Source of the DNA: Prorocentrum cordatum
Lineage: Eukaryota
Assembly: GCA_963575745.1 (NCBI GenBank)
Contig: CAUYUJ010000170.1
Coordinates: 186,001 to 250,000 of the forward strand
Length of the DNA stretch: 64,000 bases
Direction: 5' to 3'
Shown here piece after piece: positions 5,542 through 42,209 of this stretch. A program made the translations under genes and the position numbers. Positions within the stretch are counted from its first letter, which is position 1; each line of letters begins with the position of its first letter. The notes under the pieces were generated by a model. It was given only the letters and a program-made list of their open reading frames with translations. It did not search any database and was not told where the DNA came from.

Positions 5542-5563
5542 CTTGAGCCAAAATGGCTACGGA
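5542..5563 (-). other. Relic dinoflagellate spliced leader (DinoSL), perfect 22/22
   Basis: The + strand cttgagccaaaatggctacgga is the reverse complement of TCCGTAGCCATTTTGGCTCAAG. Confidence 0.95.
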
Positions 5564-5874
5564 GTCACTCTTGTCGCCGTCGTCCTCCTTCTCCTCCTCC
5601 TCCTCCTCCTCCTCCTCCTCCTCCTCCTCCTCCACCCCCCTCCTCTTCCTTATCCTCCTCCTCCCCCTCCTCCTCCTTCTCGTCCTCCTCCTCCACGTCG
5701 TCGTCCTCCTCCTGTTCTTCCTGTCTGAACACTGCTGGTCTCTCTCTCTCTCTCTCTCTCCCTCTCTCTCTACATATAGATACACACGTATGGATTCAAA
5801 GCTGCTTCCGCCTCCAGCACTTCCACGGCAGTCACAAGCCTACATCGCCGCTGGTCAGCATGATCAAAAGATGG

Positions 5875-6997: not shown

Positions 6998-8523
6998 CGA
7001 TAGGGGGGGGGACTGGTTCAAGGGGGGGGCATCGACCTGGAATCGGCGTCGGCGACAGGCCTCCGATGGCGAACCCGCACGGGTCTTGGCGGGGTGGGCC
7101 ATCAGGCCGCCATCGGCGATCAGTGGGCGATTGAGGGTCGATCCCCAGACCCGGCAGAAGCCAACACCCTCCCCCACAAAGTGACGAACGCCGTGCCGTC
7201 GGCAGCGAGGCAGACTGGCTGCACCAGCGATAGAACTAAGTGGGGCCACTGAGAGGCGAATTGCTCGGAAGGCGGGAGAGGGGAAAACGGAGGAGAGAGG
7301 GGGCACACCAAAAAAATGACGAACACACCACCCCCGACGTGGTGGGGGCAATCGACGCGCGTCACTGCCCGCAAACAGGGCCGCCGGGGCGCGCAGAAGG
7401 CACCACCGCCGAGACAGGAGTGCTCCGGGCCTCCTCTGTCCGCACACCTCCCTCGTCCTCCCTCCTCCCTCCTCACCTGCCCCTCCTCTCCTCCTCGTCG
7501 TCCTCCTCCTCCTCCTCCTCCTCCTCCTCCTCCGCATCTCTCTCCTCCTCCTCCTCCTCCTCCTCCTCCTCCTCCTCCTCCTCCTCCTCCTCCTCTTCAA
7601 ACCTTTCTCCTCATAGATAGCTCCTCCCTGCCGCACCCCCAGACGAGTCTTTAGGGCGGGCCGGGCGTTTCGCCTGAGACCTCCTCACCGCTTGTGCTCC
7701 TGAAGCTTGCAAGTTGCCGCAAAATCACGGATAGAGGGCGGCTCGATTTCAAAACGGAGCTCTGGCCTTCGCGCCACGCACATTCCCCTGACAAGCTTCC
7801 CTTGCGGATGGAGGGCGGCACGTCTTCAGACTGTGGCTCCCGTTTTCGCGCTGCGCACGTTAGTCGTACAAGTTGAAACGGCTTCAAGGATGGAGGGCAA
7901 TTCCTTTTCAAAATGTGGCTCTCGCAATAGCGCCGCGCACATTCGTCTTGAAAGTATGCAGCATGTTGAAGGATTCGTATGGTTGTAGTCCACGGAGTTG
8001 TGGTTTCGCTCGCTGTAGGATTGTCAGGACGCAGCAGTCACGTTGATTCGCGGCGTTGACGTCTTAGGGATGGTGTTCTGATACGATTTAGGACTGTTCG
8101 CGGCGCTGCGTTCCCCGAAATTGCGTGTTTTGGTCAACTGGGGGCTCCCAAGGCCCTATACACGCCCAGAGAGCCCCGACTCGCCCCAGGATCGCCGGAA
8201 AATCGTCCCAAACGCGTGTAAATGCCTCCACATGGCCCACCACGCTCCCGAGGCGTACCACGCAGGCGCCCCGACGGCCCAGATGGCCCCCGAGAGGCTC
8301 CACGAGGTTTCCACGACGATGCTGTGATGCTGCTTGCCGCGGAGTTCCTCTCTTGTTTCCAACCCTCCTATGGTTGGGTACTCGTTTTGAATAGAGCAAT
8401 GTGGTCGCCCCGTCTTCCTCCTCCTCCTCCTCCTCCTCCTCCTCCTCCTCCTCCCCTCTCCTCCCCTCGTCCTCTCCTGTTTCCTGTGTTCCCCTCTCCT
8501 CTTCTCTCTCGTGCCGTCGGGTT

Positions 8524-8826
8524 TGCGATCTGCGCAACCGTCGCCACTTTCGTGGGCTCCTGGGAGGCCCAGCGGAGGTGGGTCCCACGCGGATCGCCTC
8601 GGTAGCTCGCCGCCCCCTGGGGGGCTTGCGATCTGCGCAACTGTCGCCACTTTCGTGGGCTCCTGGGAGGCCCAGCGGAGGTGGGTCCCACGCGGATCAC
8701 CTCGAGACCTCGCCGCCCCCTGGGGGGCTTGCGATCTGCGCAACTGTCGCCACTTTCGTGGGCTCCTGGGAGGCCCAGCGGAGGTGGGTCCCACGCGGAT
8801 CACCTCGATAGCTCGCCGCCCCCCTG
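8524..8826. repeat. Tandem satellite, 103-bp unit; left part (3 units) of an array split by the LTR element
   Basis: gcgatctgcgcaa recurs at 8525, 8628 and 8731. Confidence 0.95.
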
Positions 8827-17288: not shown

Positions 17289-20244
17289 CCCTGGGGGGCT
17301 TGCGATCTGCGCAACTGTCGCCACGTTCGTGGGCTCCTGGGAGGCCCAGCGGAGGTGGGTCCCACGCGGATCACCTCGAGACCTCGCCGCCCCCTGGGGG
17401 TCATGCGATCTGCGCGACTGTCGCAACTTTCGTGCGCTCCTGGGAGGCCCAGAGGAGGTGGGTCCCACGCGGATCACCTCGAGACCTCGCCGCCCCCTGG
17501 GGGGCTTGCGATCTGCGCAACTGTCTCCACTGTCGTGGGCTCCTGGAAGGCCCAGCGGAGGTGGGTCTCACGCCGATCACCTCGAGACCTCGCCGCCCCC
17601 TGGGGGGCTTGCGATCTGCGCAACTGTCGCCACTTCCGTGGGCTCCTGGGAGGCCCTGCGGAGGTGGGTCCCACGCGGATCACCTCGAGACCTCGCCGCC
17701 CCCTGGGGGCTTGCGATCTGCGCAACTGTCGCCACTTCCGTGGGCTCCTGGGAGGCCCAGCGGAGGTGGGTCCCACGCGGATCACCTCGAGACCTCGCCG
17801 CCTCCTGGGGGCTTGCGATCTGCGCAACTGTCCCCACTTCCGTGGGCTCCTGGGAGGCCCAGCGGAGGTAACTGTCGCCACTTTCGTGGGTTCCTGGGAG
17901 GCCCAGCGGAGGTGGGTCCCACGCAGATCACCTCGAGACCTCGCCGCCCCCTGGGGGGCTTGCGACCTGCGCAACTGTCGCCATTTTCGTGGGCTTCTGG
18001 GAGGCCCAGCGGGGGTGGGTCCCACGCGGACCACCTCGGTAGCTCGCCGCCCCCTGGGGGGCCTGCGATCTGCGCAACTGTCGCCACTTTCGTGGGCTCC
18101 TGGGAGGCCCAGCGGAGGCGGGTCCCACGCGGATCACCTCGAGACCTCGCGGTGCCCTTGGGGCTGCGATCTGCGCAACTGTCGCCATGTTCGTGGGCTC
18201 CTGGGGGGCCCAGCGGAGGTGGGTCCCACGCGGATCACCTCGAGACCTCGCCGCCCCCTGGGGGGCTTGCGATCTGCGCAACTGTCGCCACTTTCGTGGG
18301 CTCCTGGGAGGCCCAGCGGAGGTGGGTCCCACGCAGATCACCTCGAGACCTCGCCGCCCCCTGGGGGGGCTTGCGACCTGCGCAACTGTCGCCATTTTCG
18401 TGGGCTTCTGGGAGGCCCAGCGGAGGTGGGTCCCACGCGGATCACCTCGGTAGCTCGCCGCCCCCTGGGGGGCTTGCGATCTGCGCAATTGTCTCCACTG
18501 TCGTGGGCTCCTGGGGGGCCCAGCGGAGGTTGGTCCCACGCGGATCACCTCGAGACCTCGCCGCCCCCTGGGAAGCTTGCGATCTGCGCAACTGTCGCCA
18601 TGTTCGTGGGCTCCTGGGAGGCCTAGCGGAGGTGGGTCCCACGCGGATCACCTCGGTGCCTCGCGGTGCCCTGGGGGCTTGCGATCTGCGCAACTGTCGC
18701 CACTTTCGTGGGCTCCTGGGAGGCCCAGCGGAGGTGGGTCTCACGCGGATGACCTCGAGACCTCGCGGTGCCCTGGGGGCTGCGATCTGCGCAACTGTCG
18801 CCACTTTCGTGGGCTCCTGGGAGGCCCAGCGGAGGTACGTCCCACGCGGATCACCTCGAGACCTCGCGGTGCCCTGGGGGTTGCGATCTGCGCAACTGTC
18901 GCCACTTTCGTGGGCTCCTGGGAGGCCCAGCGGAGGAAGGTCCCACGCAGATCACCTCGAGATCTCGCGGTGCCCTAGGGGCTGCGATCTGCGCAACTGT
19001 CGCCACTTTCGTTGGCTCCCGGGAGGCCCAGCGGAGGTGGGTCCCACGCGAGTCACCTCGAGACCTCGCGGTGCCCTGGGGTCTGTGATCTGCGCAACTG
19101 TCTCCACGTTCGTGGGCTCCTGGGAGGCCTAGCGGAGGTGGTCCCACGCGGATCACCTCGAGACCTCGCGGTGCCCTGGGGGCTGCGATCTGCGCAACTG
19201 TCGCCACTTTCGTGGGCTCCTGGGAGGCCCAGCGGAGGTGGGTCCCACGCGGATCACCTCGAGACCTCGCGGTGCCCTGGGGGCTGCGATCTGCGCAACT
19301 GTCGCCACTTTCGTGGGCTCCTGGGAGGCCCAGCGGAGGTGGGTCCCACGCGGATCACCTCGAGACCTCGCGGTGCCCTGGGGGCTGCGATCTGCGCAAC
19401 TGTCGCCACTTTCGTGGGCTCCTGGGAGGCCCAGCGGAGGTGGGTCCCACGCGGATCACCTCGAGACCTCGCGGTGCCCTGGGGGCTGCGATCTGCGCAA
19501 CTGTCGCCACTTTCGTGGGCTCCTGGGAGGCCCAGCGGAGGTACGTCCCACGCGGATCACCTCGAGACCTCGCGGTGCCCTGGGGGCTGCGATCTGCGCA
19601 ATTGTCGCCACTTTCGTGGGCTCCTGGGAGGCCCAGCGGAGGTGGGTCCCACGCGGATCACCTCGAGACCTCGCGGTGCCCTGGGGGCTGCGATCTGCGC
19701 AACTGTCGCCACTTTCGTGGGCTCCTGGGAGGCCCAGCGGAGGTGGGTCCCACGCGGATCACCTCGAGACCTCGCGGTGCCCTGGGGGCTGCGATCTGCG
19801 CAACTGTCGCCACTTTCGTGGGCTCCTGGGAGGCCCAGCGGAGGTGGGTCCCACGCGGATCACCTCGAGACCTCGCGGTGCCCTGGGGGCTGCGATCTGC
19901 GCAACTGTCGCCACTTTCGTGGGCTCCTGGGAGGCCCAGCGGAGGTGGGTCCTACGCGGACCACCTCGAGACCTCGCGGTGCCCTGGGGGCTGCGATCTG
20001 CGCAACTGTCGCCACTTTCGTGGGCTCCTGGGAGGCCCAGCGGAGGTGGGTCTCACGCGGATCACCTCGAGACCTCGCGGTGCCCTGGGGGCTGCGATCT
20101 GCGCAACTGTCGCCACTTTCGTGTGCTCCTGGGAGGCCCAGCGGAGGTGGGTCCCACGCGGATCACCTCGAGACCTCGCGTTGTCCTGGCGGGCTGCGAT
20201 CTGCGCAACTGTCGCCACGTTCGTGGGCTCCTGGGAGGCCCAGC
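17289..20244. repeat. Tandem satellite, ~29 units of 103-bp and 101-bp variants
   Basis: Unit gcgatctgcgcaactgtcgccactttcgtgggctcctgggaggcccagcggaggtgggtcccacgcggatcacctcgagacctcgc...; no unique spacers. Confidence 0.97.
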
Positions 20245-20989
20245 AGAGTTACGCCTTACGAGTTGCCGCTGCTCTTCTTTCTGCGCTCTTCTGAGTTCAC
20301 TGATGGGTGCTCTTCTTCCGCACTGCGGGTTTTTCAGCATGTCCGTCAGCATTGAGTGGTCCCGAATGTAACCACCACATGTATAGAATGGGTTGGGTAC
20401 GTCGCAGGGTAATTTGTGTGTAACAGGACGTACTAGAGATGCAACGGCCAGCGCTGCACATGAGCTGTTACCTTGGGCTGCAGCCCGCTGGAATTGCTGC
20501 TGCCATGGGCGGCAGAGTCACACAACTACTCGAGCAGTAATAATCTGTGCACACGGCACTGGAGTGATCAGTCCTGGAGTGCTGTCCTGAACGGTTGTTC
20601 AATTTCCCGTTTGTTCTTGGTTGTTCCTGTTGGATTCAACCTTTTCGGCCTACTGACGCTCCACAGCAGCCCCAAAGGGCGAAAGCTCGCCCCAAGACGA
20701 TTTCAGAAGCCCCCTCCAGGGCGCCACACTGACCAAGAGGCCCCAAAGACGCCACAGGAGACTTGCAGGACAGCCCCAAGAAGGCACCACATCGCTAAAA
20801 CATCACTGCCAGACGCTCATCAAGCCTTCCAGGTGGCACCACCACTAATGACGACGATGACGACGACGACGATGACGACGACGACGCGCGAAAGAAGCAC
20901 AGTACGGCGGATGAGCAGGACATGGGATGCAACTGGCACTCGGTGATGGGACGGCGTTGCGGATCGGCAGGAGTGTCTCAGGACGTCTG

Positions 20990-21994: not shown

Positions 21995-24900
21995 TCATAT
22001 CTGGCCCCCGCCGCAAGCGCAGCACATGTCCTGTGCAGAAAAATCTTCGGAGTCGTAATAGAATGCGTAGGAGCAATATTCTGCTTGCTTGTCCCAATCT
22101 TTACACGAATTAGAAGCAAGATCAAATGCGCCCTCTTCGGCGGTGTCGACGCACGGATCTTCTTCTAGTACCATCCCCGAGCAAGCGCAACACATATCGA
22201 CGGCCGTAAAATCATCGTCGTCCCATTCATAGCAACTTATTTCCAACACGTCTTCAGAATACCCATTGTACCACTGACAAGGTTGATTGTTACTGTTGAG
22301 ATTGCTGACACAGTCGCAGGTGCAGTTGTGGTCGATCATCGGCACGTCAAGTGGCGATCCTTCTTCTACGCCTCCGTACAAAATGCTGCCGTAAAGGCTG
22401 ACCGACAGCTGAGAGGTGTCCAAGCCGTCAACGAGAACAATCGCATCCTTCACGCTCGAGCTGAAACTTGCCCCGCTTACGACTGGAACGACACGTCGCT
22501 CTAGAAAAAATAATTGCTGGGGGGAGAACTCTCGGAACAATATTCTCGTGCATGCCATGACTGAGCCCTGGTGGAGCTCCATCTGCACATCGTCGATTGT
22601 GCTGCTCGGGCTGTAATCCAGGATTGTCTGAAGGACCAGATCCTTCAAGTGTCTGGTCACGTCGGACTGTTGAGCAATCGAAAGGTCATCCAGGTCCATG
22701 CCGTCGATTAGGATGGTAAACTCAATCGCAGCTGTCTCGCTACCTCCAGAGCAAGCGCAGCACATCTCACTAGCTGTGAAATCGTCGTCGTCGGCACTAC
22801 AATTTACAGTCTGTCCAGCGTCTAAATAGGATTGCAATTCTCTGCAACCGCGGCCATTCGCATCTACAGAGCCCAGAGAATACGCATTATGGCAAGGGTT
22901 GTAGAAGGATCCACCCCCACATGCACAACACTGCACTGTGGCAACGAATGTTTCGTCGTCGTTGTCGTGGCACAAATCAAAATTGGTTCCATTCGGACAC
23001 TTCTTCGTGGCATTGACAGGAACGGTGTCCTCACAGCTGACAGTTCCATTGCTAGCAGTCGTCGAAAGCGTCTCCCCAACATAGTCTGCCCCGTCCTCGC
23101 TGTACCATGGGTGAACATGTCGGCAAGTACCGTCGCAATCTGTAAACACGCACTTGGCGGGGCACTCGGTGAGCGAGCTGGCTTCCGTGCACTGGCATGC
23201 GCTGGGACAGAAAGACTTGATGGACGTGCCCTCGACTGGATTGCACAAGTCTAAATTGAGGAGAGAAGCGATCTCATACGAAGCGAGAAACTCGCAGCCG
23301 GTCAGACCGCGGGGGTGCGGAACGCCTGGCGCGATCTCCCAATTGCTCGTGGTCGCCAGCATCCTGAAGAACCAACCAAGCGTGATGGAGTCCAAGATTA
23401 CCTCTGCTTGTCGTTCCGAAGGAGAGATGCCGACGTAGTCTTCTTTGACGACGTTCCTCACGCCGTCTTCGAACCCTGGTCTGGAGTACAAGTATTGGAA
23501 GAGGCCTTGCACGTAACGAAACCATGCGAGATTCTCTCGCGGCATGTCCGTGCAGTCGTTAGTCCACTCGTCCCAGCACTCTGCAGAGCTCTTCACATTG
23601 TATTTGCCACCTCCGCAAATGCAGCACATCTCAGACGCGGTGAAGTCACCGTCGTCTCGCTCTGCGAAGACACCGTACTCCCAGACGCCGGCCGCCGTTG
23701 CGCAGATCTGGTCGTTGCGGCCGATGTTTGCGGTCATAATTCTTTCGTACTCCGCGCAGTCAAAGAAGTATCTGTCGAAAACTTCAACGCCATGGTCGTC
23801 GCGGTTGGAGCTGGAACAGTTGCCTGGGAAGGTGAACTGGGCGACGTCGAAATCAGTGCACTGCGTGAACCGAGGCCAGTTCGGCTGCGCCATGTCGAAC
23901 CGGAACCTGATCTCATTCTCTGCCGCCCGAAACGTCGAGCACTGCGTGGGGCACCCGAAGCCCGGGGTCCCGAAGAAGCCGACCCGGCCGGAGCCGGTGG
24001 TCAGGAAGGTGGCGTCGCACTCGCAGGTCTTGGGGCAGAGCGCCCTCAGCTGGTACATGTGCTGGTCCGAGCACATCTTCAGCGGCACCTCCGAGCAGTT
24101 GGTGAGGTCACTGATGCCCGTCACCAGGCGCAGCTCCATGGTCGCCGCGGCCACATTGAGGTTCTCGGCCAGGTCCTCGCACGGCAGCGACGCGGCCGCG
24201 TCCGCGACGCTCCACGACGACATCTGGATGATCCGCTTGAAGCTGTCGTCGTTGGCCACGGCCGCCGCGAGGGACGGCGCCCTCGGCTCGAATACGGCCC
24301 TCGAGGAATCCACGCTGGAATGGGCGAACATCTCCTCTGTGATGTCGGTCTCCTCCCAGTGGTAATTCTGCGGGTCGAGGAGGGGAGGCTGCGCCACCCC
24401 AGCCACGGTGTACTCGGACTGGGTCCACTCCGTCCGGGACGGCGTCTTGGCAACGTGGACCAGGCCTGTGGCCGGGTTCACGGTGTAGATGAAGTCTGTC
24501 TGGCCCTGGCACATGATCATCTCAGCCTGTCGCAGCTGCCAGAACACGAGGGGGTCCATCCACAGATACAGGAGGACGAGCACGAGAAAGGCCCCGCCAA
24601 TTTTCAGCATGGAGTTGATCACCGAAAGCTGGGTCCCTCCCCTGGCGTTCCGTGTCATCAGCGGCAGTGGCTCCAGATTGTTGACCAGGATCTTGACCCT
24701 CCGCGGCACGAAGATATCAAAGATGCACTCGTCGAAATCGAGCACAAAGGCCAGCGCCACACCGTTCAGGATCAGTTCGGTCAGGCTGATGGTGTGTGCC
24801 AGCCACTTGGCGCCCACCCACCAAAGGACCCCAGCGAGTATAATTTTCGGGCAGCACACGAGAAGGCAAACCGCGTAGAAGCGGCCGTACCAGATCCTTG

Positions 24901-27029
24901 TCCAGCGGACCACCTTCATGATCGATATCAGGTTGGAGTGCGCCAGCTCGTCCTCGCCGTGGTCCTGCTCGATCAATGACCGCAGAAAGGTCCCCGACTT
25001 CTGGTAGAGCTGCGACGTCCTGCTAGACTCGGTCATCTTCGCGCACGCGTCTTCGGTCGTCGTCTTGCTCTTCGTCTTCACCACCCCGTTCTCCTTGTCG
25101 TCGTCGCTGTCGGAGTCCTGCAGGTCCGCAAGGAACAGCCGCGAGCTCCTCCTGCTCCTCAGGATGCCCTTCAGGCCCCGAAAGATGGTGACGGTGTTGT
25201 TGATGTCCCTCAGGACGGTGGACGCCCACAGGAACTGGATGAGCATGACCAGGGTCTCGGCCAGCCAGGCCTGCTCCACGCTGAACTTCGAGATGTTCGA
25301 GTACAGGTCCTGCCAGGAGAGCCCAGAATCGAATCGATAAGTCGGATCGGCGATCGAAATGAATCGGATCGGCGGAAATCGGCAGCCGAGTCGGGAAAAG
25401 TCGAATCGGCAGACATCGGCAGGCTAAAAGGCCTCCAATAAGAAATCAGAGCCCAAGTCGGAATCTCAAGTCGAATCGAATCGGAATCGGAAGCCATCGA
25501 AATCGAATCGAATCGAATCGGAGGGATCGAAACGAGCCCTGTCCTGCTGCCCGCCAGCCAAGTGGAGCTTGGCCTCCTGCGTGCACACCTGCGACGCCAT
25601 GGACCGCTGAGACACCCTGTCCGCGTAGTCCGCGTGGTGCGCGGCGCCGAGCCGGAACTGCAGCAGGCCCTGGAGGACCTCGGGGGAAATCGCCTGGTCG
25701 TCTTCCAGCATCACCTCGACGATGTAGACGAACGCAACCTGCAGGCAGATGTTCATCAGCCAGCAGACGCTCACCAGAACGGAGCACGAGGGCCCGACGG
25801 CGGGGATGAGGACGAAAAACATCGAGTCCCAGACGGAAGAGTTCGAGCGGTACATGCCGCCCTTGTCCAGCATGCTGGCGGTGACCGCGATAAGCTTGCC
25901 CTCGCGCATCGTGTTCTCGCCCTCGTCGCTGTCCGAGCTGAGGGTCGACATCATGGTGGGCACCGGAGGAGGAGGAGGAGGAGGAGGAGGGAGGAGGGAG
26001 GAGGAGGAGGAGGAGGAGGAAGAATAGGAGAAGGAGGAGGGGGAGGAGGAGAAGGAGGACGAGGAGGAGGAGGAGGAGGAGGGCGGAGGAGGAGGAGGAG
26101 GAGGAGGAGGAGGAGGAGGAGGTGGGCACCGCGACCATGCCCAGCGCTTCGCCCGCCATGGGGCCCAGGTGCGGCGCCGCGCGCGGCGTCCCGCTGGGCG
26201 ACGCGGCACTGCTGGCGCCGTTCTCGCCCGCGCTCCTGCCGATCACGCTCGGCCCAGGCGCCTTCGACCCGCTCCTCGCGGAGGGGCTGACGGCCAGGTC
26301 GTCTGGCGCGTCGATGTCGAAGGTGTGCTCACCTTCACTGTCGCTCTGCAGTCGGTTGTTCGGCTCGTCGTCTTCCTCCGTCTCCTCGGTCCCCGGGATG
26401 CGGAATGGGTTGGTCTTCGCATCGCCGTACGCCGACGTGGCCTGGGACTCGGTGCTGTCCCTGACGCTGAAACGCATGGATGTGCCGCGGGCGAGGGGAG
26501 TCGCATCGCCGTACGCCGACGTGGTGTTCTGGGAGTCGGTGCTGTCCTTGAGGCTGAAAGGCATGGCTGTGCCGTGGGCGCTGTCCAGGGTGTTTTTCCT
26601 CCCCAGCGTCGTGGTCGAGCCCCTGCCGGAGCGATGCATCGCGGACGTCCGCGACCTGTCAAGGCTGCTCGACGTGCCGTCACGCTTGATCTTCTTGACC
26701 TTGTCCTTGAGCTTGGTCAGGTGCTCCTTCAGCTTGGTGTTGGTCTGCTCGACGATGCTCATGATGTCCGCCCGGTTGGCGACGGTCTGGTTGCGAACCC
26801 TGACGAGCTCCTCCTCCTGTGACTTTATTATCTGCTGCTGAGCTTTCAACTGGCTGTCGAATGACCGCACGACGACCTCGAGGACCTCGGCCACCTGGTT
26901 GCCAGACAATGGCAATGCGGTCTTGAGCGCGGCGATGAGGCTGGTCAGGTTCGGATCCTGGCCGGCACTCGTCTCGGAGTCTTGCATTTCTGGCCACTCT
27001 TGCCGCGCGCCCGGGCTGTCCGCCGCCAT
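21995..27029 (-). CDS. Large multi-pass membrane protein with Cys-rich extracellular region, about five DDxFxAxxMCCACGG repeats and a SEA-like domain; segments 27029-26121, 25954-25544, 25309-21995; possibly inactivated by the GGA insertion
   Basis: 1094-aa ORF with several hydrophobic segments; frame continues upstream after removing 25310-25543 (GGQQ|DLYSNISKF) and the GGA insertion (VAVPT|MMSTL); relic SL ~125 nt upstream of the ATG. Confidence 0.8.
25314..25541. mobile_element. 228-bp element (family E, CAGG..CCTG ends, gaatc-rich) forming intron 25310-25543
   Basis: 6-bp TSD tcctgc (25308-25313, 25542-25547); second copy of the same length at 38869-39096. Confidence 0.88.
25965..26120. 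repeat. (GGA)n tract inserted in the CDS, flanked by the 10-bp direct repeat ggtgggcacc
   Basis: ggtgggcacc at 25955-25964 and 26121-26130. Confidence 0.9.
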
Positions 27030-27153
27030 GGCTGGAACCAAACGCAAGGGGCTCCGCCGACACTAAAGCGGCAGAGTAACCCTCGGGTTCGGAGTATGTC
27101 CCCAAAGGAAAATTGGAATATGATTGGGAGGTCCGCAGGTCGGCTTGCACTTA

Positions 27154-27175
27154 CTTGAGCCAGAACGGCTACGGA
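27154..27175 (-). other. Relic DinoSL (20/22) upstream of the membrane-protein gene
   Basis: Reverse complement reads TCCGTAGCCGTTCTGGCTCAAG. Confidence 0.9.
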
Positions 27176-28564
27176 CCGACGTCGCCGACGAATTGGGACA
27201 TGGACCACGAACAGACTTGGCAGATCCCATGCGGCACAGATCCTCCCTTCGACGGCTTCCACGGGGACTTCACGGAGCCGCTGGACGACGTCGATGCGAG
27301 CACCCAGCGATCCCTCTGGAGGCAGGCGAGGAGGAGGAAGATGATGATGAGGAGGCGGAGGAGGAGGAGGCGGAGGAGGCGGAGGAGGAGGAGGAGGAAG
27401 GAGGGAGGAGGAGGAGGAGGAGGAGGAGGAGGAGGAGGAGGAGGAAGAGGAGGAGGAGGGAGGAGGAGGAGGAGGAGGAGGAGGAGGGAGGAGGGAGGAG
27501 GGAGGAGGAGGAGGAGCCGAAGCATGAGTCGCCCGACCAACCTGACCCTGCGGCACGCCGGCCCCCTGCGCGTGGCCCCCGCGGGAGCTCGCCGCGTGCG
27601 AGCCAGCCAGGTCGGCGGTCGAGCGACATCGACGACTGGGCCGTGGGCGTGGTCGCCGCCACGGGAGGACCGGCGGTGGACAAACCTCCCTTTAGCAAAC
27701 CTCCCCTTAGTGAAAACGGCCTGGGACCGAGACCGACGAGCCCGGACCCGCAGAAACGACGGCCGCGGCGCCCTCTCGCGAACCAAAAACGGCCAATTCC
27801 CTAATCGACGTGTCGGGGTAGGAGGTCTATCAACCTCCGAGGAGAGGACGGGTGGCCCCGCGAGCGGATGCGTGCTGCGGGGTACACGCCTGCCCTGCAC
27901 GTGCGCTCGTTGCGGACATGAAAATGGAGCGCTGTGTATCATCGAGGCTGGAGCCGAGTAAGCGTCGAGGCCGTGGCGACGTCGACGAATCTGCGCTCCT
28001 CTGCGAGCCCGCCAGAATCTACCACGGGAGCTGCCCCAACTGGACTCCGAGGGGCCCCGAGGATCCGTGAGACCCTCCTGCAGCTCGACGAAGACAGAGC
28101 CCCGACCCGACTCGAGCCCGGCGAATCTGAAGCCCCTCCCCGACACGCTGAGGGTTCCGCTGCCGCGCTTGGGGACGGGTGGAGGAGGAGGAGGAGGAGG
28201 AGGAGGAGGAGGAGGAGGAGGAGGGGCAGGAGGAGGCGCTGTGGTGCTCGAGCCCCTCCGCACCCAGGACGGCCCCTCGAGGGGCCCCGCGGCTGGCGTG
28301 GGCTCCTCGGTGCCCGGTGGCCGCCAGGCGGTCCCCCCTGCTGAAGGGGCCACGGCCCGGGCGGCCGCCCCGGAGGCCACCCCTGGACCGCTCCAGTCCG
28401 CAACGGGCCACAAGTGCTGGGCGTGTTTTCCACCACCACCACCACCATAAGTTGGAGGGGGGGGGGCTCCTCCTCCCACTCCTCCCCCTTCTCCTCCTCC
28501 CCCTCCTCCTCCTCCTCGTCGCCCTCCTCCTCCTCGCCCTCCTCCTTCCCCCCACCAGCTTACG

Positions 28565-28830
28565 GTGGTGGCGGCGGAGAACAAGCTTATCAACAAGCCG
28601 CTGTACGACGACTGGCTGAGAGGTCGGCACCTCGACTCGTTGCGCCCCGGGACGAACACCGACCTCTGGGCCAGGATCCGCCAGGCGCTCGTGGCTACAG
28701 GGCGGTTCCACGCTTCTCTGGAGCGGGTCCCGTCCCGTCACGGGGCTTCGGAGATCACTGCGCCTCGTCAAAGGATCACTGCCACAGGTACCGCATGCGC
28801 CGACGTCGTTGCGTCGCTAGCCGCGGCGCG
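28565..28830 (+). pseudogene. RNase H1-like fragment, probably from a decayed LINE
   Basis: NTDLWARI..ERVPSRH..GTACADVVA resembles N.DLW / .V.(S/A)H / GN..AD. Confidence 0.5.
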
Positions 28831-34533: not shown

Positions 34534-35733
34534 GAGGAGGAGGAGGAGGAGGAGGAGGAGGAGAAGGAGGAGGAGGAGGAGGAGGAGGAGGAGGAAGAGG
34601 AGGAGGGAAAGGGGAGAAGGAGGGGGAGGAAGATAGAGGAGGAGGAGGAGGAGGAGGAGGAGGAGGAGGAGGAGGGAAAGTGGAGGAGGAGGAGGGCGCG
34701 AACGCTCCGGCGCATCGGGATGCGGAGCAGCGTCGTGGAAGCATCTGGCCGCCTCGGATCGTCGGACCATCGGACTCGAGCCGGATCGGGCAGGCCAGAA
34801 TCGATACGGCCGGGCCTGGGACATCCCTCGAAGGACATCCCTCGAAGAAGGGAAAACGAGGAACATAGAATCGTATAATAATCCCTCAAGAAGACATCCC
34901 TCAAGAAGAGAAGTCGAAGAGGGGCCCTCGAAGAAGAGAAAACGAAGACATCCCTCAAAGAACATCCATCGAATCGGATAAGAACATCCCTCGAAGAAGA
35001 GAAAACGACGGACACATAAGCTTTTTCGCGCTCCGCGCGGATTTCTCGGATCCACGCTGCCCCCCCCCCAGCGGCGCTTCCGGCGCCGCCCCTGGCGCGC
35101 TCCTCGCGCCAGGGAGGGGGGTCCAGCGTAGATCCAAGAAATCCGCGCGGAGCGCCAAAAGCGTATGTTTATGTCGTTTTCTCTTCTTCGAATCCTTCAA
35201 GAACATGAGACCCTCCGCCGGCCAAACGGAAGAAGAACTTTCGAGGGTGTCCTCCCACAGGATGCACAACAGCATCCAACGACCAACAAGCACGAAGCAC
35301 ATTCGGGCACCCTCCCCGAACCGACATCGATCTTGCACCCCGGTCCGACCGCATAAAATCCGATCGACTGGATCGAAATGGATCCTGTGCCAAGTCCCGC
35401 GCGTCCAACGGGAGAGTTGTTTTCATGGCCCGCGCCTGACAGGGTCCAGCACAAGCTTGCAGGCCAACGGCTTAAAAAAGTTGAGCCAGCACCTGGTCTC
35501 ACGGAAGACTCTCTGGATCGCTGGCGGAAAACCCACTACTGAGACGCTTCGAATGCGCCGAGAGCCGGAGACCGAGGGGGAGAAACAGGACGAGGCGTTC
35601 GACTCGACTGGCGCCGATGCGTTCGGGCGGTCGCGCTTCCGCTGGCCAGACTCGTCCGCAGGGACATTTACTGCTCCGCCAACGCTCATCATCATCACCC
35701 GCATGGCAGGCACCCTGCGGCGCCTCGCATGGT

Positions 35734-38868: not shown

Positions 38869-39096
38869 CAGGAGAGCCCGGAATCGAATCGATAAGTCGC
38901 ATCGGCGATCGAAACGAATCGGATCGGCGGAAATCGGCAGCCGAGTCGGGAAAAGTCGGATCGGCAGACATCCGCAGGCCAGTAGGCCTCCAATAAGAAA
39001 TCGGAGCCCAAGTCGGAATCTCAAGTCGAATCGAATCGGAATCGGAAGCCATCGAAATCGAACCGAATCGAATCGGAGGAATCGAAACGAGCCCTG
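38869..39096. mobile_element. Family E element, second (non-exonic) copy
   Basis: Same ends and length as 25314-25541; no clear TSD here. Confidence 0.85.
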
Positions 39097-39445
39097 GAAC
39101 CCCCTGTAACAGAACGTGGCTTCGTGAGAACGACCTCGGGCCCAAGACTGGCGGGCGCGAGCCTGGAGAGTGACGGCCGCGGCGCCCTCGAGGACCGAGA
39201 ACGAACAGTTCGCTAATCGCCGTGTCAGGGTTGGGGTTCTGTCCACCCCCGATGGGGGCCTCCTGGGAGCCCTGGGTGGCCTCTCGGGGGCCCCTTTGGG
39301 CCTCCTGGGGGCCTCCCGCGCCGAGGGCTCGAAAGTGTCCCTTCGGCTCCCCCCCCCCTCGGGGCCCCTCCCGCTGGCAGCGCCGTCGCGCGCGGGTGGC
39401 GACCCGCCAGTTGCGCTTGGGCCCCGTGGACCTCCACGTCATCCA

Positions 39446-39494
<49 letters not shown>

Positions 39495-42209
39495 CTCAGC
39501 TCCTCCCTCCTCAGCCCCTCCCTCCCTCCTCCTCCTCCTCCTCCTCCTCCGCCTCCTCCCCCTCCTCCTCTTTCTCCTCCTCCTCCTCCTCCTCCTCCTC
39601 CTCCTCCTCCTCCTCCTCTTCGAGCTCCTCGTCGTCCTCGTGCTCCTCGTCGTCCTTGGTCCTGGCCCCTGTGGCGAAGACAGCAGGGGGCCGCAAACAA
39701 CAGTCGGGGTTCCTCTGAGGTTGTTTTTTGTCTTCGGCACGCCCCGTCGAGTGGGAGGGGGTGGAGGAGGAGTAGGAGTAAGAGTAGGAGGAGGAGGAGG
39801 AGGAGGAGGAGGAGAGGAAGATGAGCGCCCTTGCACCCTCCACTGGACTCACCGCATCCAGGTCACGAAGGGCGTCTTTTGATGCGAAGCGTGTGGTCGT
39901 TGCGGGGCCCGTTCCGACACGGGTAGGGGCCCCGTGGAAGTACAGAAGCTGACCAGGCCTCGCGAGCCCAGGGCTCGGGGAGAGTGGGGGTCTCGAGTCA
40001 TCGAAGCTCTGGCCGCGGGCCACTTATCGCCAGCATACTGGACCTGGCCGGATGAGCAGGAGGTTGCCCAGTGATTCCGTTGAATCCCAGGTGTTTTCGA
40101 TTCTCTCGCCGTGCCTGTTTCAATGAGCTAGCGGTGGATTCCCAGAGAAAAGGAGGACCAGAGCAAGCCAAATATGCATCAGCGATGATGCACCTCCACC
40201 TTCCGTCCAAAGCTTAGGTCGGACATGTCCTCCAACAGGCGGATTCTGGGAGAAGGACGAAACTAGCCCCAAACTAGATTCGGGCCTTGCCAAGAATAGC
40301 CGAAACAGCGTCCCCCGACTAGTATCTTGCTGTCTTTGAATAGTCCTCCAGTAGGGGGGCATGCCCGACTTACCCATCGGTCGGAAGAAGTGGGTAGAAC
40401 CATGAAGTAGAAAGGCGTTGGAAATAGATCGGGTTTCCGCCCCGCCTCCTGAAGAGGAGGGAAGAGGGAAAACCACTCGACTCTTGAAGTAGGAAGGCGC
40501 TGAAAGTAGATTGGAATCTGGGAAGGTACCTACTTTCAACGACCGAGGGGTAATCCAAAGTCCCCCGATCATACGTCCCCACGAGCGTGCCCCTTCGCTG
40601 CAAGCAGTGCCCCCCTTCCTGAAGGACCCGCACCGCTGCTGGGAATGCCGTCCAGGCGGGGGCCGCGCGTTGAGGAGGAATGGACTCACCTCCTCCTCCT
40701 CCTCCTCCTCCTCCCCTTTCTCCTCCTCCTCCTCCTCTCTTCTCCTCCCTTCTCCTCCTCCTCCTCCTCCTCCTCCTCCCTCCTTCCTCCTTCCTCCTTC
40801 CTCCTTCCTCCTTCCTCCTCATCGCTCTGACGCAAGCCCGCGATTGCGAAAAGCTATGACCATAACAACGAGGCGTCCAAGGATAGTCCGTTCTCGAAAA
40901 GGGACCGCTTCCGCCTTCGCGTGACTGTTGCACGAGCTCATACATGTGGTCATGGGCGATGGAGGAGTCCCAAGCGACAGCTCCGTTTATGTGGAACCCT
41001 CGGGCCTAACAATTAACGAAGTGCCCAGAGATAACCCCGTGTTGGGAAAGATCAATCCTCACATCTTCGAAACGTTGCGTTAAGAAACGAATGCGCGCGT
41101 CGCTGAACCGCACGCCCCACGTTTTAAACAACCAGTGACCCACCCTTGAAATTGCTGTTCGGGTTTGAAACGAATGCCCGCGAGGGGCGATATGGCGAGC
41201 GCCATTTGAAACCAGCCCCTCCTTCCATCCTTGGAAACGAAAAACGAAAAAGATTCGTAATACGAATGCACACGGCGAAAAGGCCAGGGCCACATGTTGA
41301 AACTCCCCCCAGACCAGACAGCTATTGCAAACTTGTGGGCGGATGCGCGCGTGGAACTGCGGCGATAACCACGTTTTGAAAACGAACCTCCCCCATCCCT
41401 GAAGCCGCTGCAGTGTTGTGAACGAGTGCGCGCGGCGCGAAGGCGAGAGCCACACTCAGCAAAGGAGCCGCTCTCCGTCCTTGAAAAGATTGCATGTTCA
41501 CGGCGATTACAGGAGCAAATTTGAAGGGGAACTGGGACACACAAATAAATACACACAAATAACATGTTTCCCCTATATTTCCTCATACTTTCTGGGATTT
41601 TGTCTTCCCCCCCACTTCCCATATTTTCCCATATTTTTCTGGGAATCGCCGATTAATTGTGTCTGTGTGTTTTTTCCCCTCCTGAAAAATGCTGAAACCG
41701 ATTTGCCCCATTCACGCCTGAAATTGCTCCAAGCGTTTACAACGACTGCGCGCGACGCGAAGGCGAATGCCAGATGATGAAAACAACACCCTCCAACCCT
41801 CAGACTGTTACAAGATTTGAGGACGGCCGTAGACGGAGATAAGGAGAGAGCCGCATGTAGAGAACCAGCCCCTTACGCCGTTCAAACTGTTCGAATGTGT
41901 GAGGTTCAGGCTAACCCACCCTATGAACCACGCCGGGGGGTGGGGTGTGGGGGGGGGGGGGGGCGATCGAGGAATTACTGACAAGGCCAAGGAGCGGCGG
42001 AGGAGGGGGAGGAGCAGACAGGCAACCCATCGGCTCAGCGCGGCGAGTGATTAAATGGCCAGTGGACAAGCAGCGGAGCCTGTGCACACAGGCGCGTCGA
42101 CCTGAGACTTCTCGTCGTCAATATTCCTCCTCCTCATTTTCGTCCTTCTGCTCCCCTCATCCCTCCTCCTCATCCTCCTCACCCTCCTCTTCCGTCTCCT
42201 CCTCCCCCT

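What the first reader, a model, noticed from the sequence alone, without database searches (positions are those of the whole stretch)
25955..26130. A (GGA)n tract inserted into a CDS with a 10-bp target duplication: the microsatellite behaves like a mobile insert
Seen: 156 nt of GGA-type repeat lie between two exact copies of ggtgggcacc. Removing the tract plus one copy (166 nt) fuses two frames cleanly (GMVAVPT|MMSTLSS). The sense strand of the tract has no AG, so canonical splicing cannot excise it. Inference: the many GGA/GAC tracts here may arise by insertion at staggered breaks (truncated TPRT of a GGA-tailed retroelement, or repeat addition during repair) rather than by slippage. Alternatively, it is removed non-canonically through the direct repeats. 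A weaker similar case flanks ~39420-39674 (ggcccc(t)gtgg).
Basis: partly seen in the sequence, partly recalled or inferred. Interest (0 to 1): 0.7.

Follow-up and report, generated by a model that had tools for sequence, protein, structure and literature searches.

The report
Bare microsatellite as candidate new intron
A 156-base simple repeat sits between two copies of an 11-base stretch inside a dinoflagellate protein-coding gene and is missing, to the base, from assembled sequence of four public data sets that are likely RNA, so it is likely either cut out as an unusual new intron or a recent insertion that those cultures never carried.

Summary
A 156-nt (GGA)n tract (25965-26120) lies between exact 11-bp repeats in a dinoflagellate gene that has none of its paralogue's introns. 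Contigs of 4 of 4 runs laid (four studies, probably RNA) are identical to this gene copy and lack tract plus one repeat exactly; a paralogue and a homologous protein also show the single-copy site. So it is an insertion, not slippage. The genome holds an APE-type LINE family ending on (TCC)n (27 of 30 copies), a plausible source of tail-only inserts; a second copy of this tract with 39 nt of the gene lies on another contig. The general claim fails: about 1% of tracts have abutting repeats. No register gives AG and no hairpin closes the insert; the best register is GT...CG|GT, both sites taken from the duplication. Splicing (0.42) and tract-free chromosomes as the RNA source (0.36) are nearly tied; assembly error (0.12) and reverse-transcriptase skipping (0.10) remain. 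No DNA reads were tested. This scan noted TCC-targeting LINEs and hairpin-type non-canonical introns before on other DNA of this genome; my look-ups showed no tract-only case.

The parts
25965..26120 (-). 156-nt (TCC)n tract on the gene's sense strand ((GGA)n on +); one A, 61 nt from its 3' end
26121..26131 (-). Upstream copy of the 11-bp repeat (target duplication; 8-11 bp depending on how the shared C's are assigned)
25955..25965 (-). Downstream copy of the 11-bp repeat
25964..26129 (-). Candidate 166-nt intron in the GT...CG register (one of 12 registers that give the same product; none ends in AG on the sense strand; one reads GT...AG on the opposite strand)
   Evidence: registers; exact absence from contigs; splicing itself is inferred
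21995..27029 (-). Host coding sequence, 1,544 codons once both inserts are left out; predicted membrane protein with a Cys-rich C-terminal part; no Pfam family over its cut-off; lacks the introns of its paralogue on C19060 (likely retrocopy)
25314..25541 (.). Second insert in the same gene: 228-nt MITE-like element (CAG...CTG ends) with 6-bp duplication; a GA...AG|G register from the duplication would remove it in frame (predicted introner; removal not seen in RNA)
   Evidence: (5 full copies in 1.164 Mb, 3 with an exact 6-bp duplication); no contig of this gene copy covers it
27154..27175 (-). Decayed spliced-leader copy about 125 nt upstream of the start codon
   Evidence: identification as the dinoflagellate leader is from recall and from its perfect copies

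Best explanation
A bare (TCC)n tract lies between two 11-bp copies of coding sequence and is absent, to the base, from assembled contigs of four runs; it likely entered at a staggered break and is likely removed from the mRNA as a young non-canonical intron whose two ends come from the duplication. Entry (inferred): reverse transcription of a repeat-only RNA tail by the machinery of the (TCC)n-targeting LINEs, cut short before any LINE body was copied, or repair templated on another tract; the upstream repeat ends in CCACC, 4 of 5 like the tract. Removal (inferred): the duplication holds C-G-G-T, so it gives a GT donor and a CG|GT acceptor, one base off the AG|GH rule of dinoflagellate introners; the tract acts as a long pyrimidine run and its only A, 61 nt from the end, could be the branch point. 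Shown: anatomy, single-copy ancestral site, exact absence from contigs, existence of the LINE family. Not shown: the tract in raw DNA reads, and tract-bearing DNA and tract-free RNA in one culture.
For: Contigs join 26121 directly to 25954 in 4 of 4 runs laid, four studies, none covering 26109-26120; the X7 949-nt and X1 274-nt contigs fit the 166-nt skip on both sides. Junction contigs have depth like their neighbours (4.6-6.8 against 2.5-11.7) and run unbroken through the site. 0 differences in 3,523 aligned bases of gene-copy contigs (positions overlap between runs), which points to the same or a near-identical genotype, and only one assembled copy exists. The gene is otherwise open, shows 28 silent and 28 replacement differences in 233 codons against its paralogue, and its other insert sits at a spliceable site. 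G|GTGCCC is a real donor in the paralogue. Introners that take both sites from an AGGH duplication and a conserved exonic GH are described in 10.1101/2020.10.14.339549. In Amoebophrya only 11-30% of non-canonical introns have inverted repeats (PMC7789003). LINE source: EN+RT frame of 1,869 aa between (TCC)n tracts; 27 of 30 copies end directly on (CTC)n; pure-tail insertions are known for L1 (PMC3812793). Unchecked earlier notes report about ten exact AG-less removals in this genome.
Against: No sense register ends in AG and no hairpin joins the ends (z +1.58; 0.02 expected pairs between the end regions), unlike the earlier noted cases. An in-frame canonical AG|G lies 42 nt downstream (read) and the contigs do not use it. 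The four runs have no library record (two guessed RNA, two unknown) and were chosen for identity, so 0 differences does not prove the same strain. A 15-25% diverged, intron-rich paralogue supplies most raw reads (2 of 64 reads at 99% or more in X23), so loss of this copy may be tolerated. The LINE family inserts into existing tracts: 3 of 3 truncated copies have (TCC)n on the left, and one copy is followed by its (CAT)n target rather than a TCC tail, so a long RNA tail is not shown. The priming side of this site has only 1 nt in common with the repeat for a TCC-sense RNA.
Confidence: 0.42

Rival explanations
1. The insertion is real but not spliced. It is private to the sequenced lineage (or to one of two collapsed identical copies), knocks out a redundant retrocopy, and the RNA comes from chromosomes that never had it.
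For: No AG, no hairpin, canonical alternative unused. Perfect duplication, so young. Redundant and more abundant paralogue. Wild metatranscriptomes also share 23-44% of the gene's words, so low diversity could explain 0 differences. The copy on C6403 (same tract interruptions plus 39 nt of this gene) could be the donor of a recent one-sided repair event that would give both tract and duplication.
Against: 0 differences in 3,523 aligned bases; no second copy in the assembly; gene otherwise intact; if C6403 was copied from this site, the insert has had time to spread.
Confidence: 0.36
2. The tract was grafted into the gene by the assembler, drawn by the 39-nt identity with the C6403 site.
For: Absent from all contigs laid; a second locus shares tract and flank; tracts differ between otherwise near-identical duplicates (L002/L006), so tracts may be noisy.
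Against: The other junction is unique in the genome and shares only 2 nt with the tract; the two tracts differ (89% with gaps) and the central 32-mer is unique; flanks are error-free against contigs.
Confidence: 0.12
3. The tract stays in the mRNA, and reverse transcriptase slips between the 11-bp repeats (a falsitron), helped by loss of GGA-rich fragments in library making.
For: Falsitrons are flanked by 3-16-nt direct repeats and reach 70% of cDNA reads, over 90% in some samples (PMC8240250, passages).
Against: No hairpin to stall the enzyme; unbranched contigs in four studies need the skipped form to dominate (my rough bound: unspliced share under about 25%, an estimate, not a tool result).
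Confidence: 0.1

Closest known systems
Dinoflagellate introners that take both splice sites from the target duplication (Polarella classes 13/14, AGGH; 10.1101/2020.10.14.339549, parts 1-2 of 4 read)
   Same: Insert in coding DNA plus one duplication copy is removed exactly; donor and acceptor positions both come from the duplication; exon resumes with GH
   Different: No terminal inverted repeats, no element family, 8-11-bp duplication, CG in place of AG; body is a bare microsatellite
Non-canonical introns of Amoebophrya A25/A120 (PMC7789003, passages)
   Same: No AG; direct repeat at the boundaries; dinoflagellate
   Different: Their introner elements have 8-20-nt inverted repeats and 3-5-nt direct repeats; here no hairpin and an 11-nt repeat
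Tail-only L1 insertions and microsatellite-targeting APE LINEs (Waldo, Mino, Kibi, Koshi, Dong; PMC3812793, passages)
   Same: Pure simple-repeat insert with a duplication; an APE LINE in this genome sits in and ends on a microsatellite
   Different: Tail is (TCC)n, not poly(A); no LINE body to tie this insert to the family; TCC is not among the targets listed in the passages read
Falsitrons (PMC8240250, passages)
   Same: Exact loss between direct repeats in cDNA-based data, no canonical ends
   Different: No hairpin at the base; skipped form seems dominant in four studies

Membership tests
Dinoflagellate introner | Target-site duplication at the boundaries | tested here: met
   11-bp exact repeat; single-copy site in paralogue and contigs
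Dinoflagellate introner | GT/GC/GA donor and AG acceptor on the sense strand | tested here: not met
   0 of 12 registers end in AG; best is GT...CG
Dinoflagellate introner | Terminal inverted repeats and a family of copies with the same ends | tested here: not met
   Body is pure C/T; one related tract only, on C6403, without duplication
Dinoflagellate introner | Removed from the transcript of a chromosome that carries it | tested here: inconclusive
   Absent from contigs of 4 of 4 runs; DNA of those cultures not seen
Amoebophrya introner element (non-canonical) | 8-20-nt inverted repeat closing the intron | tested here: not met
   z +1.58; 0.02 expected pairs between the ends
Amoebophrya introner element (non-canonical) | 3-5-nt direct repeat over the boundaries | tested here: not met
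   Repeat is 11 nt
Tail-only LINE (TPRT) insertion | Duplication of roughly 7-20 bp (range recalled) around a pure tail | tested here: met
Tail-only LINE (TPRT) insertion | A LINE in the genome whose 3' end meets the same repeat | tested here: met
   27 of 30 copies end on (CTC)n; EN and RT domains in L196
Tail-only LINE (TPRT) insertion | The LINE RNA carries the repeat as a tail, and its endonuclease cuts this site | tested here: inconclusive
   Flanking tracts look target-derived (L207, L218, L232); this site only half resembles the target
Falsitron | Present in cDNA, absent in direct RNA sequencing | not testable with these tools
   No direct RNA data were offered

The most novel reading that the evidence does not exclude
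A bare microsatellite dropped into coding DNA by the machinery of repeat-targeting LINEs becomes an intron at once: the duplication supplies GT and NG|GH, the repeat supplies the pyrimidine tract, and this dinoflagellate's spliceosome accepts it without AG and without a hairpin. Microsatellite-targeting retrotransposons would then be a source of new introns with no transposon body.
Probability: 0.28. Interest if true: 0.82.

Novelty: new variant of a known kind. Interest (0 to 1): 0.56.

Why it matters
If spliced, it is a minimal natural test of what defines an intron in dinoflagellates: no AG, no hairpin, no element, only a duplication and a pyrimidine run. It would link microsatellite birth by retrotransposons to intron gain, and gene finders would miss such genes (no protein of this copy came up). 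If not spliced, it is still a clean case of a microsatellite born by insertion in unique DNA, where the duplication is visible; inside existing tracts such events would pass for slippage. One PCR plus one direct RNA run decides it.

Tried and rejected
Slippage from a seed in the gene: rejected; the single-copy site has no repeat run. General rule for GGA tracts: not supported. One search, a first version of that test, missed the positive control and was discarded. Empty-site search in 1.164 Mb: 33 of 277 tracts had hits for both flanks, mostly self-hits (faulty filter) or low-complexity; the true paralogous pairs (L025/L066, L079/L137, the L098 pair, L055/L139) were all filled, so L025's 9-bp repeat is an old family feature. 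Hairpin from the quasi-palindromic repeat: the two copies can pair in isolation (-10.7 kcal/mol) but not in context. Remnant of the paralogue's intron: that GC-AG intron lies within the duplication's span and starts with (TCC)n after 13 nt, but its interruptions differ and it cannot give the upstream repeat; kept as an unexplained coincidence. Antisense GT-AG splicing: that register exists, but the stranded reads of X23 over the exons, mostly from the paralogue, point almost only to minus-strand RNA. The 20 RVT_1 loci fetched from the top end, by eye, on A/AT-rich targets, none on a GGA/TCC tail. GGA-sense LINEs: 1 of 16 frames from 11 of 12 loci gave a weak RT hit under the cut-off; not established here. 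Metagenome scan for the junction: 0 matches. X15 and X23 gave no usable cover of the junction for this copy. PMC3229502 passages did not bear on the question.

Full report
Observation. The 10-mer occurs only at 25955 and 26121 in the window, and the repeat is 11 bp. On the minus strand the tract is 156 nt with 153 pyrimidines, one A and no AG. Leaving out 166 nt joins a 303-codon upstream frame to the downstream frame; keeping it gives a stop at codon 528.

Host gene. The minus-strand frame runs from 27029 to 21995 and has one other interruption, a 228-nt element at 25314-25541. That element has 5 full copies in 1.164 Mb of sampled DNA, 3 with an exact 6-bp duplication, and a GA...AG|G register from its duplication removes it in frame. 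P0001 reads GGQQDLYSN across that site. A decayed spliced leader lies at 27154-27175. An intron-rich paralogue spreads over more than 240 kb of C19060 at 75-98% identity, so this copy is likely a retrocopy in a dinoflagellate (4.1 Gb). Eight aligned exon pieces show 28 silent and 28 replacement codon differences in 233 codons, which points to selection on at least one branch. Pfam found nothing over cut-off.

Empty site. The paralogue reads GTC AG|G GTG CCC ACC ATG with one copy of the repeat; P0001 reads VVRVPTMM. Twenty runs hold part of the gene. I laid six of them. In one search an X7 contig of 949 nt and an X1 contig of 274 nt ran off the left piece; a 166-nt skip predicted their far ends at 26772 and 26233, and one search gave exactly these. 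In one search, 4 of 4 runs (X1, X5, X7, X10; four studies) join 26121 straight to 25954, and none covers 26109-26120. Contigs of this gene copy have 0 other letters in 3,523 aligned bases over both calls. The runs have no library record. I infer RNA because a single-copy gene at depth about 5 lies in contig sets of 105-146 million letters from a 4.1-Gb genome, and cover stops at 27094. If any is DNA, it shows an empty allele directly.

Is it general? In 277 GGA/TCC tracts from 1.164 Mb (window, paralogue locus, C6403 stretch and 99 spaced stretches of large contigs), 4 have an abutting exact repeat of 8 bp or more, against 0.65 in 40 shuffles: this one, an old family feature (L025) and two in low-complexity DNA. 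In 871 simple repeats from 1.56 Mb, 11 do, against 0-4 in 8 shuffles; the shuffles do not keep local composition. L184:4749-4863 (12-bp repeat around GGA) is the cleanest second case, in non-coding DNA with no empty site at hand. So about 1% of tracts at most show this footprint.

Where could a bare tract come from? Spliced leaders abut GGA tracts in 1,883 matches and TCC tracts in 5,284 (overlapping matches counted; controls 0), while about 1% of positions follow such a run and the sample held 4 exact leaders. Of 5 frames scanned from 8 TCC-leader loci, 3 have RT hits, one with endonuclease in an open 1,869-aa frame. Of 30 copies of that family, 27 end directly on (CTC)n, two after a short break, and one on (CAT)n with a 20-nt duplication; all 3 truncated copies have TCC on the left. 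This is a TCC-targeting APE LINE, as earlier notes said. L1 can insert a pure tail when severely truncated (PMC3812793, passages). A tail-only event off target would look like this site; on target it would be invisible. That the RNA carries a long tail is not shown.

A second copy. C6403 holds a tract with the same interruptions followed by 39 nt identical to this gene, with no duplication. That junction occurs at these two places only; the other junction and the tract's central 32-mer are unique. C6403 may be a copy of this site, or the donor of a one-sided repair that copied repeat plus tract into a break, or the bait for an assembly graft. I cannot order these.

How could it be removed? Twelve registers give the same product; none ends in AG on the sense strand; one is GT...CG|GT, and one reads GT...AG on the opposite strand. 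No hairpin closes it. G|GTGCCC is a working donor in the paralogue. Dinoflagellate introners can take both sites from an AGGH duplication, and the exonic GH after the acceptor is conserved (10.1101/2020.10.14.339549, parts 1-2 of 4 read); this duplication offers CGGT. Most non-canonical introns of Amoebophrya lack inverted repeats (PMC7789003, passages; review PMC11453091, passages). Earlier notes on this genome, which some of them call Prorocentrum cordatum, report about ten exact AG-less removals, nearly all hairpin-bounded; I did not check them, but they raised my odds for splicing from 0.20 to 0.42. Against: a canonical in-frame AG|G 42 nt downstream is unused, the paralogue dominates the raw reads, and cDNA skips between direct repeats can be dominant artefacts (PMC8240250, passages).

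Verdict. A real-looking insertion with duplication, absent from four probably RNA data sets. Odds are my judgement: spliced 0.42, RNA from tract-free chromosomes 0.36, assembly graft 0.12, enzyme slippage 0.10. It works like a duplication-defined introner but fails membership (no AG, no inverted repeats, no family). Eight paper searches showed no microsatellite-only intron in their listings or in the passages read; subscription papers and supplements were not seen. Six answered look-ups in earlier notes showed no tract-only case.

Noticed in passing
window 25314-25541: 228-nt MITE-like element with 6-bp duplication in the same coding sequence; predicted GA-AG introner with both sites from the duplication; another copy at 38869-39096 without a clear duplication.
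   Followed up: partly
L031:1337-1538 (G000:C6403 about 35045-35246): Copy of the same tract plus 39 nt of the gene, joining two unrelated flanks; suggests that tracts act as hubs for ectopic copying, or an assembly graft.
   Followed up: partly
G000:C19060:300735-304733: The paralogue has a GC-AG intron at the position of the duplication, and it begins with a (TCC)n run after 13 nt; unexplained coincidence.
   Followed up: partly
L196, L197, L198, L204-L233: Spliced-leader-headed APE LINEs inside (TCC)n tracts, some with intact single frames of 1,869 and 2,786 aa; thousands of leaders abut TCC or GGA tracts genome-wide.
   Followed up: yes
window 5542-5563 (-): Perfect spliced-leader copy about 20 nt from a GGA tract (5583-5713); what follows it was not identified.
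   Followed up: no
window 28433-28570; L022:4400-4560: Small element with inverted ends (CCA runs, then ATAAGTTGGAGGGGG) around a GGA/TCC core.
   Followed up: no
L184:4737-4875: GGA tract between exact 12-bp repeats in non-coding DNA; best second candidate of a tract-only insertion.
   Followed up: partly
L152-L171: Young LINE families with 1,245-1,349-aa frames that end on A/AT-rich targets such as (TA)n and (AGT)n.
   Followed up: no
window 17289-20248 and 8519-8823: Arrays of a 101-103-bp tandem repeat, about 23 copies in the larger part.
   Followed up: no
window 21995-23900 (-): The host protein's C-terminal part repeats a DDxDFTAxxMCCxCGGG-like Cys motif; no Pfam family; relatives found only in dinoflagellate-labelled and unnamed records.
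   Followed up: no
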